In this document: positions 27,001 through 45,000 of the stretch, in pieces
Layout: every line of letters starts with the position of its first letter
Numbering within the stretch: the first letter of the stretch is position 1
NCBI GenBank assembly: GCA_964594545.1
Contig: CAZQNB010000001.1
Span: forward strand, 23,358-87,357
Source of the DNA: an uncultured bacterium
Lineage (GTDB): Bacteria > Chlamydiota > Chlamydiia > Chlamydiales > SM23-39
Direction: 5' to 3'
DNA length: 64,000 nt
Made by a program: the position numbers

Positions 27001-30000
27001 ATTGGATTGACGGAAGTTGTAGGGCTGGCCGTTGTAACTGCCTTCTTCCGGAATAAGATCGACGGTATATCCTAGAGACAGCTCTCTGCGGTTTCTTTCG
27101 GTAACGTCCTTGATGCTCGCAAGATCTGTGATCACCAAATTAGATAGGACGAACTCGCCGTCTTGGGTAATTGTTTCCCCTGTGTATCCAATGGCGAGCC
27201 GCTTGGCATTTTCAGCCGAGACAAGCCGTTCTTCAGGATGCCCATTTGTCACAGGAATCATTTTCATGCTGTCCAGACTGTCTGTTTTGAAAACTTCGTC
27301 TGGATGGCGCAATTCTTTGCGGATTGTTCCGTCGGGATTTTTATATAGGAAAACGCCGGTGCGGGTGACTATGGCGTTGGCTTTGATGTATCCTTCGTCT
27401 GTAATGAAGGCATCGCCCTTGACCTGTCCTCTATCAAAACGAGCAACATCATTTAACTTCATTTTTCCTCTACCCAAAAATCAAATTGTTAGAATTTCAA
27501 CCCATTCTAAGAGAAAAGGTTGGCTAACTGGTTAAGTGGATGGCTGGGTAGCTGGATGTATGGTTTTCTGGAAATCTTATTGGTTGGATAGAAGAGAAGA
27601 TGGGTCTAGATATCCAAGAGTCCTTCTAAAACTGGAACAGCGACGCATCGGCAATTTATATCAGTTCCCGGATGGCCAGTATCTTTCGGAGGGTTGTCCC
27701 ACCGAAATTTCTTTCCATCATGGGCTTTATGGGTAGGACGAACTCTTTCATCGCCTGCCGTTTGCCAGATGTATTCCTCGACGCCTAATTCTTGCTGCCT
27801 TAGCTTTGTCAAGCTCGCATTCAATTTAGACGTCTGGTCCCGCGCAATCAAACGCGCGCGCCGTCTAGTAATTCCGAATCTTTCTTGGATGGATTGAGTC
27901 ATTGAGTGAAATCTGCTTCCTTCCTGCAGCCCTCTCTCGATGATCTGTGCGACCTGTTCGAGTTCTTGCGCTGGAAGAGAGCGGATTAATTGAGCATTTT
28001 GGCTGCCGAACAGTTTTAACTGATCTTGAAGCCAAGGCTGATCGATAAAAATATCAATTCCGAATACGGAATTGTTGATTCTGTCGAACTGCCTTTTGTT
28101 GTATTTGGCGACTTGTACGCCAATTTTTTTCGATTCCGCTATGGTTTCTTCAACTTTACCCTTTATAGCGTGTATTACAGAATTTATCAACCTTTTTAGT
28201 GTTTCTGAAAAATCATCGCCCCTTGCCCGGGAGCTCGGATAGAGCTGTTCCACCTCTGAAATCAGAGAGGGGAGTGCGGGGATGATGATCTCTTTAATTT
28301 GTTTTTTTAATTCGTTTGTCAGCGAGAAAAGAACTCTCGTATATTCCCGTTCCTGGGAAGAAGGCGGATGCCATTTCGGAGGATTTTTCATTTTGGCAGC
28401 CTGCCGTTTGCTTAATCGCCGCTGTTTGATTTTAACAATTTGATCGACTGAAACCATGGCTACACCGTTGAGCGGTATCTGATTCCCGTAGGCATGAAAT
28501 CAGGTCCGATGCCTGGAGGGGGGCTTTCTTGAGATTTTTTCTCCTGCTCCAGTTCTTCGATTTCCTCCGGATCGAACCCGCCCTTCCGTCCTTCCAGATC
28601 CACTTCTGTATTCATAGACCAGCGGTTGCCGCCGAAACGAGAGACAGCCACTTCAGCAGGATCAAGAACTCCTCTGTCGAGATAAATGGCGTCTGTTTCC
28701 GCGACGATTTTTCTGACGATGGCTTCCTGTTCTTCGGTGTTCTGCCATAAGGGGACGAACTGAACGGACCAGTTATCCGGTTCGATTCCGGCGAAGGGTC
28801 CGTCTTTGGAGAGCATGATGTAGCGGGTAAGCTTTTCAAGCACTGGCTTAAGCTTGTTTTCCTGCTCCTGCTTGACCATGTCGTAGAAATTCCTGACATC
28901 ATTGTCTCCGGTAGCATTCAATCCGGCTGCGCTTCTTCCGAAGAGCAAGGATGCCGGAATGCCAGAGACCGCAGATAGAGCCAGCATAAAACGATCGAGA
29001 AGCTCAGGGATTCCAGAGATATTGGTTGATGCCTTTTCATATTTCTCCTCTGCATCCAATATCATCGTATTGGTTGCTCCTTTGGTTAGATTCAGTAGAT
29101 CGAGTCGCTTCATGACTTGGTTGTCAGCGCACTGCGAAGCAATTAATTCGGCAAGATTGGGGATTGAAAGGGTGTAATTGACGAAGTCCTGCATGATAAG
29201 CCCCGCATTGGCAAAGGCTGTCGAGTAATTGCGCAGCTCGTCGTAGATTGATTGGATGAGGGGATCTCCCCATCCATTGTTGAAATTCTGCTGCCTAGGA
29301 GGCAATAGAGACCAGTCTACGCGGAGAATCCTGGAATGATGCACATAGAAGAGGGCTCCTGTCCGCGTATCGTTGACCGTGTAGACATTGGGGTATCCAT
29401 AGTTCGGGCTGTTCAGATCTTTTTCAAAAGTCCCGTCCCTGCTGAATGATTGATAGCGGTCGAAGACATGGAGCCATTTTATATCCCTGATATTCCGTTC
29501 GTCGACAGGCTCTTCCAAAGGAAGCCCGTCGGCGATTCCCATAACGCAAAGAGCTCCTCCGTACAGCCTTGCCCAGCGCAAAAGCGTGATTAAATTGAAA
29601 TTAGTCCTGATGGACTCCATTTTACGGTTGATGTCCTGGCCGGGATCCCCCTCGATTTCCCATCCTTGCCTAACCATCTCGGCAGGAACGATGTCCATGA
29701 TTCTTCGAGTAACGCCGTCCGATCTGTATAATTGATCCAGTTCGGCTTGTTCGAAGATTCTTTCCAGGCGGAAATGGGCGTTGACGTTTTTATCCCTTCC
29801 GCGCATTCCAAGTCCTGTCAACACATTGATCCACCCATCGGATTTGACAAATCCATCACTGTGAGGGATTCTGCTCTGTTCTTCTGCGGATTTTTTTTCG
29901 AAATTATAGGTGCCCATATTCCCTCGAGAGTTAGAAATCTGATTCTTGTGGAATTGGGTCTTAGATTGGGAAATTATTGGGTAGTTGATTGCAGGTTTTT

Positions 30001-42000: not shown

Positions 42001-45000
42001 ATTGACCAGAGCAAATTGTTGAAGGCTCATGAGGGGATCAACTAATCCAAGTTCGATCAGTTTTCTAATGCCGGATCTGTAATTGATTTGTGTTTTCGAG
42101 CTGAGAGTTGATAGCCAATGGGCGATTGATTCTTCTACGGAAATCAAGTCGAGCTGTTTCCATACCAGATTTGACTTGAAGGATGAGGCTTGTTCGTAGG
42201 TTTCCAAATTGGAAGGTGTTTTGATTTCCAAAACAGGCAACATCAAAGTCATGGCTTTAAATCCAAAGTTTTTTTGAGAATTTGAGTTTTTGGGTCATTT
42301 TCTATATTGATACCAAAACTTGTTTATAAGCGGCTTTATAAACAACGAAATTTAGCTCAAAACCTCTTTCGTAGCAACACAAAGTTTTGGTGGTTGCGAA
42401 CATTTTACGCTAAGCTGTTTTAGCTCCTTATTTTCCATATCTCTTTTCATTCCTTATTGCTAAATGTTTGTTGACCTCTAATCTTTCGATCTTTTATACA
42501 TCATGTCGTTAGATAGTTAAAAGCGCAGGATGTAAATTATGAACGAAGCAGTGCAAGAGCTTGAACAGCATGACAGCAAAGAGGCTGATCTCCAAAAGGA
42601 ACCGGCAGCCATGCAGCGAAGCAAGAAAAAAATCAAAGCAACCATTTATCTAACTGAAGAAGCGGAACAGGCATTCACAGAGCTCTACATTCATCGTTTG
42701 CGCAAAGATCGAAAGATCGACCGCTCGATGATCGCTTGCGATGCTATTCAGATGCTTTTCGAGAAAGAATGCGGAACGCCTTCAGATTAGAAGAAGGCGT
42801 TTTCTTCCAGCCATTGATTCACGGCCGAAACAACGTCCTCTATGGATTCAGGCAGCTTGAGCGCGCCCTTCTTCGTTTTGATTTTTTTACGGTAAGCGCT
42901 CCAGTTTTTTTCCATCGCTTCAAAAGCATCTTTTCCAAATGAGGCTGGCAGCTTCTTGAGGGGAGTCTTTCTATGATGGAAAACAAGCTCGACGGCTTTC
43001 TTCGCTAAAGAGCTGTCTAAAACATCCAGACGCACCAGAGAGTAAAGATCATGGAAATCCTTCATTCTGGTATTGCCTCCTCCTCGGAAAACAATCGTTT
43101 CAAGCTTCTCCGCGAAAATAAATTCCTTGGGATAGCAATGCAAAGAAATCCTGCTTTCGAAGAGCGGGCCTTTCGATGTGGATGTCAAATCTATCGGATG
43201 CTCGATCGGCTCGACGCGGTCTCCGAATCCCAAATCCATGCGGATGATCGTTTTTGTGGCCCCGAATAGCGCCTGCAAGGTGATCTCAGCCCCTGTGTAT
43301 GCAAGCTGCGAATGATCGAGGATTTTGATTTTAGCCACTTCGAAAGAAAAGCTGTCATCGGCATCGACATCGCAAATCGCTTGCAGAACTGTCCTTAAAG
43401 ACTGTTCGGTGTTCGATAGCTTTTGAATAAAGAAGTCAAGATCCTGCGTTTCTCTTCCAAGATGAATGTACTTCGCCAGGAGCGTTCCTCCTTTTAAGAT
43501 GAATTTTTCTTTGTACGAAGACTTTGCTAAGCGCGTGAGAAATCTCTCCAGGATCAGATTCCTCCAAAGTTCTGCAAAGGTGGTTTCACGCTCCTTTGCC
43601 AATGCTTTGATTTTCTCTTTGATTGATTGTTCAATTGCAGATTTCATAATGTAAATGCCGATATATAAGGGGTTAAGTCGACTCTAAGCTTCTTCGCATA
43701 CTTGAGGAGCTTGTCAATGTCTGGTTTTCTATCATTGCTTGCTTTCAAATAAGCTTGCAGAGCCTTCAAAGCGGTTTCCTTGTCTAGATAGCGGAAAGAA
43801 TCTACGACGGTTCTTTCCCGATCAAAGATCTTGATCTTTCTGCTGCCGATTTTGACGGTTGTCTGGCCGAAAGAAATATTCCGCATACGGACGATGCGGG
43901 CGTTTTCTCTTGAAGGAGAGGTGGTGGCATGCGGAATGGCGATCCAAAACTCCCTCATGATTTCATCCGTCAGCCCGTAATAGCATAGGGCGGAGATAAG
44001 GCAGATGACGCCATTCGGAATGCTTAAAGCGGTTATTGCCAAATCCTCCCATTCGAATGCCGAATGGAAATCAATGTCCTTGATTTTATACATCCCCCGG
44101 CTGACTTTCTCGATCTGCCCTTTTTGGCAGAAATAAGCCAGCATGCGGGGAGGGATTCCAGCCTCCCTGCCTTCCGCGGAGGAGAAAACCGCCTTCTTAG
44201 AAAGCGCCCTGAAAGCTTCTGAATACTTTGATCTTATCATACCCGCAATGTAACAGAAAAACCCATTAAGCACAACTGGGTTTTTCTGTTACATTTTCAT
44301 CTCGGAAAACATCTAATAAATCCTTTGAAATAAGGTCTTTATATCAAAGGGTCATTAAAGCGTTCAGGTCATAGGCCGACTCATTCAATAGCAGGAATGC
44401 TCCGCTTAGGGCATCGACGATGTCATCGTGGCCTCCTTCAGGGAAGTTTTCCAGCTCCCTGAAAAAATCCTCGTTCCACGGCGCCTGCAGGATTTTAATG
44501 TTTCCCGCTTCGGCTTGGGAAGAGGCTGGAAGCGCCCTAGTTACTTTATCCTGCGTAGCTTTGACCGTTTTCACGTTATAGCCTTGCAGCATCCGGACTA
44601 GATAATCCGCTTCGCTGACGCCTGCCTGTCCTGGATCCTGTTCGATTCCAATGCGGACTGAAGCGCCGTCCTGGCTGGCTGTATTTTTGATTGCGCTCTG
44701 CACCCCTAGCGGACTTTGCTGGATTCTGACCATATCCGTGACATAGAGGATGTTGTTTTTATCCTTCTCCAGCCGGAGGCCCACGGTATAATCAGGGTCG
44801 TTGCCTTCTGTTTTCTTTGTAGCCGCACGGTCCCAATAGCGGACTGCTTTCAATCCTGTTTTGGGAATGGCTTTAACGACTTCGAAAAAACTTCTTTGGA
44901 AGAACATTCCCGCTGTTGGCCGGATATTCCAGTTTCCCATCAACAGCTGCTCTCTTTCAAAGCGCGGCAGCGCTTTAAGGTTAGCCAAATATCCAGGATC

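What the first reader, a model, noticed from the sequence alone, without database searches (positions are those of the whole stretch)
29918..44343. A 14.4-kb AT-richer cargo block is wedged between terminase and portal
**Seen in sequence**
- terL ends at 44344 and the portal gene starts at 29917.
- In phages of this organisation these genes are normally adjacent (established knowledge).
- The 14.4 kb between them has mixed strand orientation and is visibly more AT-rich.
- It carries non-phage functions: a DUF234-type ATPase, uhpC, two DUF488 proteins, NsrR-like/RIC/qNOR, an IS, glgC plus a CBM-like gene, a tyrosine recombinase, an RHH protein and AbiE.
- The left junction is a repeat-rich 500-bp non-coding region. 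The right junction is only 70-100 bp and contains a 19-bp inverted repeat.

**Inference**
- The block is either an integrative element or accreted morons that landed inside the packaging-morphogenesis operon, or it is a signature of domestication of the phage.
- The portal operon then needs its own promoter (see the motif finding).
Basis: partly seen in the sequence, partly recalled or inferred. Interest (0 to 1): 0.6.

Follow-up and report, generated by a model that had tools for sequence, protein, structure and literature searches.

The report
Cargo bay of a chlamydial phage-plasmid
The 14.4-kb block between terminase and portal is not a one-off insertion but the accessory-gene compartment shared by a family of phage-plasmids of environmental Chlamydiae, anchored on the plasmid's own Pgp7/8-type recombinase and a conserved 28-bp lox/dif-like site, and here loaded with host-derived glycogen and nitric-oxide-detoxification genes.

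Summary
terL ends at 44344, portal starts at 29917, and 14.4 kb lies between them. GC3 of the central genes is about 0.36, against 0.50 for the backbone.

The block is not a private insertion. Every chlamydial relative (TerL 86-99% identical, about 15 metagenome-assembled genomes (MAGs) plus the finished 89.5-kb Criblamydia sequanensis plasmid) has cargo at the same place, 3.5 to 25.7 kb long. More distant phages (TerL about 70%) have terL and portal 39-82 bp apart.

The "tyrosine recombinase" is the chlamydial plasmid core recombinase Pgp7/8. It is 49-58% identical to those of Chlamydia, Waddlia and Simkania plasmids and 81% to the Criblamydia one. The window also carries ParA, a ParG-like protein and a DnaB-like helicase, so it is a phage-plasmid.

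The truly variable slot is 31854-41274, between the convergent 3' ends of int and a PDC-S27-type ATPase gene. Its genes are chlamydial chromosomal types: glgC with a CBM20-fold protein, NsrR-RIC-qNOR, DUF488, a frameshifted uhpC and an IS5-family IS.

A conserved 11-6-11 inverted repeat (42319-42346) lies upstream of int, once per element. In two independent pairs of relatives, similarity breaks exactly there.

Verdict: a new member of a known plasmid family. The shared slot and the site appear undescribed.

The parts
44344..45693 (-). terL, large terminase; right border of the block
   Evidence: Pfam Terminase_6N/6C. 93% identical to terL of the Criblamydia plasmid.
44247..44295 (.). 19-bp perfect inverted repeat with an 11-nt spacer, just upstream of the abiEi ATG (44240); likely AbiEi operator and/or terL terminator
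   Evidence: Found. Present in every locus that has abiE, with compensatory arm changes in L012/L016. Absent where abiE is absent, apart from a relic in L010.
42787..44240 (-). abiEi (43644-44240) and abiEii (42787-43647): type IV toxin-antitoxin / abortive-infection cassette. Optional in the family and backbone-like in composition
   Evidence: Pfam and PADLOC AbiEi 5e-79, AbiEii 1e-71. Present in 8 full-length relatives including pCs and absent in at least 7. GC3 0.52-0.55.
42539..42790 (+). 83-aa probable ribbon-helix-helix protein, transcribed divergently from int; conserved in all family members
   Evidence: Present in all family members. Paralogous to the C-terminal domain of the protein next to ParA. 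UniRef names a homologue RHH. No Pfam hit.
42319..42346 (.). Candidate recombination (lox/dif-like) site, CTTGTTTATAA-N6-TTATAAACAA(G/C): 11-bp inverted arms and a 6-bp spacer, 67 nt upstream of int
   Evidence: The 9-bp inner arm cores (TGTTTATAA / TTATAAACA) are identical in all family loci while the spacer varies. Occurs once per element and nowhere else in 1.41 Mb of fetched loci. The same architecture lies 13 nt upstream of the recombinase gene of Waddlia plasmid pWc. Similarity breakpoints in window/L004 and in L007/L008 fall at its edge.
41275..42252 (-). Pgp7/8-family (Xer-like) tyrosine recombinase, a chlamydial plasmid core gene
   Evidence: Pfam Phage_integrase. Below all NCBIfam Xer and integron cut-offs. 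tblastn identity 80.6% to the Criblamydia plasmid, 58% to Waddlia pWc, 57.6% to Simkania pSn and 49-51% to Chlamydia 7.5-kb plasmids, where it is annotated pGP8-D.
31854..41274 (.). Variable cargo slot (9421 bp) between the stop codons of int and the ATPase gene
   Evidence: The slot is 34 bp in L004, 84 bp in L009, 2.1-4.7 kb in seven others and about 21.9 kb in pCs. Mean GC3 0.357.
39498..41143 (-). glgC (39863-41143) plus a standalone CBM20-fold glycogen-binding protein (39498-39836/39890)
   Evidence: NCBIfam glgC 9e-122. CBM20 fold. The same pair follows int in L007, L008 and L010, and also occurs on a chromosome-like chlamydial contig, L083.
39060..39461 (+). DUF488 protein, N3i subclade
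   Evidence: Pfam 3.5e-40.
36691..38997 (-). Quinol-dependent nitric oxide reductase (qNOR)
   Evidence: Pfam NorB_cytochrome_c-like plus COX1. The named best homologues are chlamydial: 86% Parachlamydiaceae, 82% Protochlamydia, 81% Waddlia chromosome.
35744..36628 (-). IS5-family insertion sequence with 23-nt terminal inverted repeats and a two-ORF transposase, inserted between RIC and qNOR
   Evidence: It supplies the last 4 codons and the stop of RIC. Chromosomal homologues have RIC and qNOR 8 bp apart (L084, L089). Its GC3 is 0.48-0.50, unlike the cargo around it.
34083..35758 (.). 158-aa membrane protein (34083-34559, -), Rrf2/NsrR-like regulator (34546-34974, -) and RIC/ScdA di-iron protein (35060-35758, +)
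   Evidence: Pfam. The same three genes plus qNOR are adjacent, in the order hyp-Rrf2-RIC-qNOR, in the Waddlia chromosome at 55-81% identity.
33517..34089 (-). DUF488 protein
   Evidence: Pfam 2.6e-34. PADLOC candidate families PDC-M45B/M19A.
31945..33353 (-). uhpC-type transporter pseudogene: two overlapping ORFs with the frameshift at a (CAAAA)n tract, 32945-32966
   Evidence: Logan gene calls split it in the same way.
30420..31853 (+). ATPase_2/DUF234-type ATPase, defence candidate PDC-S27; conserved left anchor of the slot
   Evidence: Pfam ATPase_2. PADLOC PDC-S27 E 1.7e-79 over the full length. 73-77% identical in L004, L007, L008, L009 and L018; a 26% variant in L012, L014, L016 and L027; a remnant in pCs.
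29918..30419 (.). Divergent regulatory spacer. The portal-proximal part (29918 to about 30080) is conserved and includes the 2 x 29-bp tandem repeat. The ATPase-proximal part carries 3 x ATCCGTAGATTGAC
   Evidence: This is also the left similarity breakpoint against L004 and L005, at about 30025-30085.
28460..29917 (-). Portal gene; left border of the block and first gene of the head-tail operon
   Evidence: Pfam Phage_portal_3 1.6e-90. 92% identical to the pCs portal.
2..2545 (-). Plasmid core outside the block: DnaB-like helicase (cut by the window edge, 2-1204), ParG-like protein (1225-1779) and ParA (1766-2545)
   Evidence: 74%, 48% and 65% identical to the corresponding pCs proteins.

Best explanation
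The window is part of a chlamydial phage-plasmid. It combines a tailed-phage packaging and morphogenesis set with the ancient chlamydial plasmid core: a DnaB-like helicase, ParA with a ParG-like partner, and a Pgp7/8 recombinase.

The terL-portal interval is this family's accessory compartment. It has a fixed frame:
- an optional abiE cassette with its own operator-like inverted repeat;
- an RHH gene;
- a 28-bp 11-6-11 inverted-repeat site;
- the Pgp7/8-type recombinase gene;
- on the far side, a PDC-S27-type ATPase gene with its own control region.

Between the convergent 3' ends of int and the ATPase gene lies a slot that tolerates insertions because no operon is interrupted.

**Shown**
- In this window the slot holds 9.4 kb of chlamydial chromosome-type genes. 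These are glycogen synthesis with a glycogen-binding module, the NsrR-RIC-qNOR nitrosative-stress set, DUF488 genes, a decaying uhpC and an IS.
- The position is shared by the whole family.
- The cargo genes have chromosomal chlamydial homologues.
- The recombinase belongs to the plasmid core family.
- The site is conserved.
- Similarity breakpoints coincide with the site.

**Inferred**
- The recombinase acts on the 28-bp site as a Cre/lox-like multimer-resolution system, and possibly also circularises the genome after injection.
- Recombination at that site between co-resident relatives, completed by homologous recombination in the conserved backbone, swaps the int-cargo-ATPase segment as a unit. 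That would explain why the AT-rich module (about 30.1-42.3 kb) differs from the otherwise 95-99% identical relative L004.
- Individual cargo genes probably enter by IS activity and by plasmid-chromosome recombination.
For: **Family-wide position**
- terL-portal gaps are 3.5, 5.2, 6.0, 7.1 and 9.1 kb in five relatives. They exceed the fetched downstream flank (4-10 kb) in the others, and are 25.7 kb in the finished plasmid pCs.
- The gaps are 39-82 bp in 20 more distant phages.

**Fixed frame**
- RHH and int are present in all relatives. The ATPase is present in most. abiE is optional.

**Phage-plasmid identity**
- The window is collinear with the circular 89.5-kb Criblamydia plasmid across helicase, ParA, tail, head, portal, int, RHH, abiE, terL, terS, methylase and DUF1064.
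- Int belongs to Pgp7/8.
- Published work describes a 'phage group' of genes on the C. sequanensis and P. massiliensis plasmids and treats Pgp7/8 as a plasmid core gene (PMC7846284).

**Host origin of the cargo**
- The named qNOR best hits are chlamydial.
- hyp-Rrf2-RIC-qNOR are adjacent in the Waddlia chromosome.
- DUF488, qNOR, a CBM-like gene and glgC lie on one chromosome-like contig.
- RIC and qNOR are adjacent in L084 and L089 without the IS.

**Module swap and the site**
- Window against L004 is 95-99% identical down to the site and about 70% across int and the ATPase gene. It rises again through the portal-proximal spacer (0.61-0.87) and is 95.7% across portal and the head genes.
- L007 against L008 is 100% identical for 700 nt up to the site, then 76-88%.
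- The site occurs once per element, with invariant arm cores and a variable spacer, and is also present upstream of the pWc recombinase gene.

**Other support**
- Phage genes are functional by dN/dS 0.01-0.10.
- Cargo in relatives is typical plasmid cargo: metal efflux, glucoamylase, Fic, an ankyrin protein, NUDIX and transposases.
Against: - Circularity and extrachromosomal state of this particular element are not shown. One relative lies on a 1.9-Mb contig (L012), and chromosomal relics exist (L020, L022, L023).
- No recombination assay exists. The 28-bp repeat could instead be an operator for RHH or Int.
- It was not found near the recombinase genes of Simkania pSn or C. felis pCfe1 with the same scan.
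- L007 against L008 shows many other small divergent patches, so homologous gene conversion is frequent. One breakpoint at the site could be coincidence.
- The left breakpoint has no matching site. Arm-like matches there occur at chance frequency.
- How individual cargo genes entered is not shown.
Confidence: 0.75

Rival explanations
1. An independent integrative element, with its own integrase and att sites, inserted once between terL and portal of this phage.
For: - A tyrosine recombinase gene lies inside the block.
- The int-to-ATPase segment behaves as a replaceable unit relative to L004.
Against: - All chlamydial relatives carry RHH-int at this position, including those with an empty slot of 34 or 84 bp.
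- The recombinase is the plasmid core Pgp7/8.
- No direct repeats flank the block or the module.
- There is only one copy of the candidate site per element.
Confidence: 0.04
2. Specialised-transduction-like capture. The element integrates into the chromosome through its recombinase, and imprecise excision carries off flanking host genes, as in lambda gal/bio.
For: - The cargo genes are chromosomal-type chlamydial genes, in short blocks of neighbouring genes also found together on chromosomes.
- Integrated copies and relics exist.
- The cargo starts within about 130 nt of the int stop codon.
Against: - The candidate site lies upstream of int, while the cargo lies downstream of int. Aberrant excision would place host DNA next to the site, not beyond the int gene.
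- The cargo is a patchwork from several chromosomal neighbourhoods, with an IS.
- No chromosomal copy was seen with int abutting glgC.
Confidence: 0.1
3. A domesticated (GTA-like) or defective particle system. Cargo growth has pushed the replicon beyond what the capsid can hold, so particles carry only part of it or other DNA.
For: - Non-chlamydial relatives sit on 41-44-kb contigs, whereas chlamydial ones sit on 70-98-kb contigs and pCs is 89.5 kb.
- Structural genes are under strong purifying selection across chlamydial families.
Against: - Contig length is not genome length, and capsid capacity is unknown.
- TerL is 86-93% identical across different chlamydial families, and two copies occur in single MAGs. 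Both point to horizontal spread of the whole element (PMC7846284 infers whole-plasmid transfer).
- This reading does not by itself explain the position of the cargo.
Confidence: 0.08
4. Assembly or binning chimera joining phage DNA to a low-GC chlamydial chromosome fragment.
For: There is a sharp GC drop.
Against: - Independent Logan contigs span the terL-abiEi junction and the cargo-ATPase-portal side. The int-glgC junction was not seen directly.
- The same architecture occurs in more than 15 assemblies and in a finished plasmid.
Confidence: 0.02

Closest known systems
Criblamydia sequanensis CRIB-18 megaplasmid (NZ_LK031773.1) and the 'phage group' plasmids of Parachlamydia/Protochlamydia massiliensis (Kostlbacher et al. 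2021, PMC7846284)
   Same: - Gene order is collinear: helicase, ParA, tail, head, portal, cargo, Pgp7/8 int, RHH, abiE, terL, terS, methylase, DUF1064.
- Identities are TerL 93%, portal 92% and Int 81%.
- Cargo lies at the same place.
   Different: - The cargo content is entirely different. pCs carries glucoamylase, glgP, ackA, phosphoketolase and Cu/heavy-metal efflux, about 21.9 kb in the slot.
- pCs retains only a remnant of the ATPase gene.
- The window backbone is GC-richer (0.47-0.50 against 0.41-0.44).
- The paper lists gene families but, in the passages I read, does not describe the shared slot or the 28-bp site.
Phage-plasmids such as P1 (Cre/loxP multimer resolution, ParAB partition)
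   Same: - One replicon carries tailed-phage structural genes together with plasmid partition and replication genes.
- A tyrosine recombinase has a single inverted-repeat site with a short spacer next to its gene.
- Cre/loxP is described as the P1 multimer-resolution system in PMC10999674.
- From memory, not checked here: in P1, lox lies a few kb from pac. Here the site lies 2 kb beyond terL.
   Different: - The recombinase belongs to the chlamydia-specific Pgp7/8 clade, not to Cre.
- The site is 11-6-11, not 13-8-13.
- The replicon is the chlamydial plasmid core.
- No experimental evidence exists for lysogeny as a plasmid or for particle production.
Defence and accessory-gene hotspots of temperate phages and satellites (for example the P2/P4 hotspots; from memory)
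   Same: There is a fixed genomic position with conserved flanks and variable content. The content includes abortive-infection and defence-candidate genes (AbiE, PDC-S27, DUF488/PDC-M45).
   Different: - Most of the content here is metabolic or stress cargo of host origin.
- The frame includes a plasmid maintenance recombinase.
pdif modules of Acinetobacter plasmids and integron cassettes (from memory)
   Same: Accessory genes are exchanged next to Xer-type or integron-type tyrosine-recombinase sites.
   Different: - There is only one site per element and no site pairs bounding modules.
- There are no attC-like repeats.
- The integron-integrase model scores 22.5 bits against a cut-off of 265.

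Membership tests
Chlamydial plasmid family with phage group (pCs type) | Pgp7/8-clade tyrosine recombinase | tested here: met
   tblastn identity 80.6% to pCs, 58% to pWc, 57.6% to pSn and 49-51% to Chlamydia plasmids, where it is annotated pGP8-D.
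Chlamydial plasmid family with phage group (pCs type) | ParA/Pgp5-type partition ATPase and Pgp1-type DnaB-like helicase | tested here: met
   ParA (1766-2545) is 65% identical to pCs ParA. The helicase N-terminal 401 aa (2-1204) are 74% identical to the pCs helicase; the gene is cut by the window edge.
Chlamydial plasmid family with phage group (pCs type) | Collinear phage packaging and morphogenesis module | tested here: met
   32 window proteins between 6525-29917 and 44344-48026 match pCs in the same order at 49-96% identity.
Chlamydial plasmid family with phage group (pCs type) | Circular extrachromosomal replicon | not testable with these tools
   Only a 64-kb window is available. pCs is circular, but relative L012 lies on a 1.9-Mb contig.
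Integrative element / prophage-in-prophage | Direct repeats (attL/attR) at both ends | tested here: not met
   There are no shared repeats of 10 nt or more between the junction regions. The best local alignment is at noise level.
Integrative element / prophage-in-prophage | Presence/absence polymorphism of the whole unit among close relatives | tested here: not met
   RHH-int is present in all chlamydial relatives. Only the content of the slot varies.
Integron | IntI-type integrase and attC-bounded cassettes | tested here: not met
   The NCBIfam integron-integrase model scores 22.5 bits against a cut-off of 265. No repeated attC-like element was found in the slot.
Cre/lox- or Xer/dif-like resolution system | Single site of two inverted arms around a 6-8-bp spacer, next to or recognised by the recombinase | tested here: met
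   The 11-6-11 site at 42319-42346 occurs once per element. Its arm cores are invariant and its spacer varies. It is also present in pWc.
Cre/lox- or Xer/dif-like resolution system | Recombinase binds and recombines the site | not testable with these tools
   Only indirect evidence is available: similarity breakpoints at the site in two pairs of relatives.
AbiE type IV toxin-antitoxin / abortive infection | Adjacent AbiEi (wHTH antitoxin) and AbiEii (nucleotidyltransferase) genes with an inverted repeat in the promoter region | tested here: met
   Pfam and PADLOC hits. The 4-nt gene overlap is read from the coordinates. The conserved inverted repeat covaries with the cassette. Activity was not tested.
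PDC-S27 defence candidate | Full-length match to the PADLOC PDC-S27 model | tested here: met
   E 1.7e-79 over residues 5-475 of 477. This is itself only a candidate system.
CBM20 starch/glycogen-binding module | CBM20 beta-sandwich fold | tested here: met
   Model pLDDT is above 90 over residues 31-112. Foldseek top hits are STBD1 CBM20, glucoamylase and beta-amylase starch-binding domains (E 1e-5 to 1e-4). Ligand-binding residues were not checked.

The most novel reading that the evidence does not exclude
The Pgp7/8-type recombinase and its 28-bp 11-6-11 site form a Cre/lox-like system. Besides resolving multimers, it fuses co-resident chlamydial phage-plasmids at that site. The segment next to it (int-cargo-ATPase) then becomes a shuffling platform for host-derived adaptive genes. 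Because it lies just downstream of the terminase genes, this cargo would be packaged early and spread by particles between chlamydial families. If so, this would give Pgp7/8 a defined DNA target. It would also identify tailed phage-plasmids as a gene-exchange route among obligate intracellular bacteria.
Probability: 0.25. Interest if true: 0.7.

Novelty: new member of a known kind. Interest (0 to 1): 0.45.

Why it matters
- Chlamydiae are obligate intracellular bacteria with few known routes of gene exchange. To my knowledge their only characterised phages are small Microviridae.
- At least 15 MAGs plus a cultured isolate carry closely related replicons combining a tailed phage and a plasmid, with intact, selected structural genes. 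These are strong candidates for a transducing vehicle and for genetic tools in environmental chlamydiae.
- The shared cargo bay shows where such elements carry adaptive genes. Here these are nitric-oxide detoxification and glycogen synthesis, which recalls the plasmid-dependent glycogen phenotype of Chlamydia trachomatis (from memory).
- The conserved 28-bp site gives a concrete, testable target for recombinases of the Pgp7/8 family.

Tried and rejected
- **att repeats.** I searched for direct or inverted repeats shared by the two junctions, for both the block and the swapped module. Only a 9-mer and noise-level alignments turned up.
- **Half-sites at the left junction.** CTTGGTTAAAA in the 29-bp repeat matches the site arm at 9 of 11 positions. 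Arm matches with up to 2 mismatches occur at chance frequency in the window, 25 observed against 28 in shuffles. No claim is made.
- **Palindrome GGGAAACAGCTGTTTCCC.** It recurs at module borders in relatives but is absent from this block, occurring only at 48109. It is probably a bidirectional terminator and is left unresolved.
- **Conserved sequence directly after the int stop codon.** There is none.
- **Promoter and terminator scan.** Promoter-like sites are at chance level, 38 against 36. This gives no support for or against a portal promoter.
- **Rfam on 29.5-48.5 kb.** No match.
- **tRNA genes as integration targets.** None in the window.
- **RHH fold.** The monomer model is all-helical with pLDDT 68 and is not decisive.
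- **Site in other plasmids.** It was not found near the recombinase genes of Simkania pSn or C. felis pCfe1.
- **Contexts of close homologues.** The look-up of P0026 failed. The closest qNOR homologue (97%) sits on a 3.5-kb contig whose downstream flank differs from the window.
- **Literature.** Searches for chlamydial tailed phages, chlamydial phage-plasmids or a Pgp7/8 site found only PMC7846284.

Full report
**1. The observation**

terL (44344-45693, minus strand) and portal (28460-29917, minus strand) are correctly placed and identified.

Two labels rested on nothing testable by sequence profile.
- **The 'CBM-like' protein next to glgC.** This is now supported. An AlphaFold model from 20 homologues has pLDDT above 90 over residues 31-112. 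It matches CBM20 and CBM48 starch- and glycogen-binding domains.
- **The 'RHH' protein.** This is supported only indirectly. It is paralogous to the C-terminal domain of the protein next to ParA, and UniRef names a homologue as RHH.

uhpC is a frameshifted pseudogene, split at a (CAAAA)n tract.

The GC drop is real: 0.35-0.43 against 0.45-0.51 in 1-kb windows. GC3 is 0.357 for slot genes against 0.502 for backbone genes, p = 7e-6. However, the abiE genes and the RHH gene are backbone-like. The AT-rich part therefore runs from about 30.1 to 42.3 kb, not from 29.9 to 44.3 kb.

Independent Logan contigs reproduce the terL-abiEi junction and the cargo-ATPase-portal side. The int-glgC junction lies beyond the fetched part of that contig.

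**2. Relatives**

A terL-based scan found 22 loci in genome assemblies and 55 in IMG/VR.
- Twenty contigs with TerL 66-73% and portal 53-65% identical have terL and portal 39-82 bp apart. This confirms the ancestral adjacency.
- Every close relative has a large, variable gap. These have TerL 86-99% identical and nearly all come from Chlamydiae MAGs; a few are labelled otherwise and are probably mis-binned. The gaps are 3.5, 5.2, 6.0, 7.1 and 9.1 kb, or exceed the fetched downstream flank (4-10 kb).
- The gap has a fixed frame: terL, optional abiEi/abiEii, the RHH gene on the opposite strand, int, variable content, the ATPase_2 gene on the opposite strand, then portal.
- The distance from the int stop to the ATPase stop is 34 bp in L004, 84 bp in L009, 2.1-4.7 kb in seven loci and 9421 bp here.

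**3. What the element is**

The recombinase is not a generic phage integrase. tblastn against PLSDB hits 138 plasmids, about 120 of them chlamydial.
- 49-51% identity to the 7.5-kb Chlamydia plasmids, where it is annotated pGP8-D.
- 58% to Waddlia pWc.
- 57.6% to Simkania pSn.
- 80.6% to the finished circular 89.5-kb plasmid of Criblamydia sequanensis CRIB-18.

That Criblamydia plasmid (pCs) carries terL at 93% identity. It is collinear with the window across the DnaB-like helicase, a ParG-like protein, ParA, tail, head, portal, int, RHH, abiE, terL, terS, the ParB-methylase and DUF1064. In pCs the terL-portal interval is 25.7 kb, filled with glucoamylase, glgP, ackA, phosphoketolase and metal-efflux genes.

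Kostlbacher et al. 2021 (PMC7846284) already described a 'phage group' of gene families on the C. sequanensis and P. massiliensis plasmids. They treat Pgp7/8 as a core plasmid gene and inferred whole-plasmid transfer between families. The window is therefore a new member of a known plasmid family, best described as a phage-plasmid.

Its packaging and head genes are under strong purifying selection. dN/dS is 0.01-0.10, and dS is saturated between distant members.

**4. Origin of the cargo**

- The named qNOR best homologues are chlamydial: 86% Parachlamydiaceae, 82% Protochlamydia and 81% on the Waddlia chromosome. Closer hits at 87-97% are unnamed metagenome contigs.
- The Waddlia chromosome has the same hyp-Rrf2-RIC-qNOR cluster at 55-81% identity.
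- A chromosome-like chlamydial contig (L083, beside PGI, G6PD and the cyo operon) carries DUF488, qNOR, the CBM-like gene and glgC.
- Other chromosomal contigs have qNOR and RIC convergent and 8 bp apart. This is the window's arrangement without the IS.
- The IS5-family IS (35744-36628, with 23-nt terminal repeats) supplies the last codons of RIC. It has backbone-like GC3, so it is a later arrival.
- Cargo in relatives is typical plasmid cargo: Fic, LigT, glucoamylase, P-type ATPases, multicopper oxidase, an ankyrin protein, NUDIX, ADH, an MsrPQ-like protein and transposases.

**5. The frame and the candidate site**

The closest relative, L004, has TerL 99% identical. Against it, nucleotide identity behaves as follows.
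- 95-99% from 44.3 kb down to about 42.3 kb.
- 65-83% across int, and about 70% across the ATPase gene.
- 0.61-0.87 through the portal-proximal spacer (about 30080 down to 29780).
- 95.7% across portal and the head genes.

So int-cargo-ATPase has been exchanged as a unit.

Aligning the RHH-int spacer of 13 family members revealed a conserved element, CTTGTTTATAA-AGCCGC-TTATAAACAAG. It has 11-bp inverted arms and a 6-bp spacer, and lies at 42319-42346 in the window.
- The 9-bp inner arm cores are identical in all 17 distinct elements plus pWc, while the spacer varies (7 variants).
- The pattern occurs once per element and nowhere else in 1.41 Mb of fetched loci.
- The small, phage-free Waddlia plasmid pWc has the same architecture (TGTGTTTATAA-TGCTAG-TTATAAACACA) 13 nt upstream of its recombinase gene.
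- At base resolution, window and L004 are identical through the site and diverge within 3 nt after it.
- A second pair, L007/L008, is 100% identical for 700 nt up to the site and 76-88% beyond it.
- Identity on the two sides of the site is discordant in several other pairs.

This is the architecture of lox, dif and FRT core sites, and the breakpoints suggest it is used.

Caveats:
- No biochemistry exists.
- L007/L008 also show other gene-conversion patches.
- The site was not found in Simkania or C. felis plasmids.
- It could be an operator rather than a recombination site.

**6. Junction features**

The 19-bp inverted repeat at the right junction sits about 10 nt upstream of the abiEi ATG. 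It travels with abiE in all loci and shows compensatory changes in L012 and L016. A relic remains in L010, which lacks abiE. It belongs to the abiE cassette, as an operator and/or terminator, and is not an att site.

The portal-proximal part of the left spacer contains a semi-conserved motif, TGATAGTGTTAATTTTAACCA, which is duplicated in the window. This part is conserved in most family members, consistent with a dedicated control region for the portal operon. The consensus promoter scan is uninformative.

**7. Mechanism**

- **Shown:** the shared position, the fixed frame, the plasmid-core identity of int, chromosomal chlamydial homologues of the cargo, exchange of the unit, and coincidence of breakpoints with the site.
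- **Inferred:**
  - The recombinase and site work as a Cre/lox-like resolution system.
  - Site-specific crossover between co-resident relatives, followed by homologous crossover in the conserved backbone, swaps the adjacent segment. Two elements occur in single MAGs: L005/L015 and L006/L017.
  - The convergent int/ATPase junction tolerates insertions, which arrive through IS activity and plasmid-chromosome recombination.

**8. Rivals**

- **A private integrative element.** This is contradicted by the family-wide frame, the absence of att repeats and the single site per element.
- **Lambda-like capture by aberrant excision.** This predicts host DNA next to the site, but the cargo lies beyond the int gene.
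- **A GTA-like or defective state.** This is not excluded, given replicons of 70-98 kb against relatives of 41-44 kb. It rests on contig lengths only.
- **Assembly chimera.** This is made very unlikely by independent contigs and the finished plasmid.

**9. Novelty and score**

The element class is published. The shared terL-portal cargo bay, its frame and the 28-bp site do not appear in the literature I could search.

I rate the finding as a new member of a known kind, with moderate interest (0.45). The more novel reading is a Pgp7/8 target site that drives cargo shuffling on a transducing phage-plasmid. I give it a probability of about 0.25.

Noticed in passing
window 48104-48131; also L006, L007, L008, L009, L010, L012, L014, L016, L017, L026, L027: A perfect 28-bp palindrome, AAATAGGGAAACAGCTGTTTCCCTATTT. 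Its core recurs exactly in 11 related loci, both upstream of the DUF1064 gene and inside the int-ATPase slot. It always sits at borders between conserved and variable DNA. It may be a bidirectional terminator or another recombination or regulatory site.
   Followed up: partly
window 48411-64000: A second variable region with no homology to any relative or to pCs. It holds an IetA-like AAA ATPase (49048-50121), a 641-aa unknown protein, an 824-aa HSP70-like protein (52040-54514), a Cas4 plus RNase H-like 498-aa protein (55525-57021), and a cluster of GNAT, GrpB, chloramphenicol-phosphotransferase-like, hydrolase and APH genes (58180-62677). This may be a defence system plus antibiotic-modifying genes.
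   Followed up: partly
window 42319-46 and L091 (Waddlia pWc) 369-396: The 11-6-11 inverted repeat upstream of Pgp7/8-type recombinase genes is shared between phage-plasmids and a small phage-free chlamydial plasmid. It is a candidate general target site for this recombinase family.
   Followed up: partly
L020, L022, L023 (chromosomal contigs): Chromosomal relics made of a terL 3' fragment plus abiEi, with or without abiEii, an RHH fragment or a portal fragment. They are flanked by housekeeping genes. The toxin-antitoxin cassette seems to outlive the rest of integrated copies.
   Followed up: partly
window 6525-7193 and 10120-10797: Two paralogous genes of 222-225 aa in the tail region both match the same single pCs gene at 64-67% identity. 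They flank a 693-aa protein with tail-collar and DUF6242 domains. This may be a duplicated or exchangeable host-range cassette.
   Followed up: no
window 55246-55476, 42539-42790 and 1225-1779: Three paralogues of one small DNA-binding (probably RHH) domain lie on one replicon. One is next to ParA, one next to int, and one in the second variable region.
   Followed up: partly
L008 13900-15387; L012 4163-6276 and 13189-15281: A DDE_5 transposase gene interrupts glgC in L008. In L012, two copies of a two-ORF unit (433-440 aa plus 265 aa) with near-identical protein N-termini are present, possibly a repeated IS. One copy lies between RHH and the 28-bp site. Only the L008 ORF was checked against Pfam.
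   Followed up: partly
L005/L015 and L006/L017: Two different family members (TerL 87-98% and about 91%) occur in the same MAG. This would give the opportunity for the inter-element recombination inferred here, or it could reflect strain mixtures in the bins.
   Followed up: no
whole window compared with relatives: Backbone GC differs between elements: 0.47-0.50 here, 0.41-0.44 in pCs and about 0.40 in L009/L010. Protein identity is nevertheless 85-95%, and dS is saturated. The backbones seem to have adapted to hosts of different base composition.
   Followed up: partly
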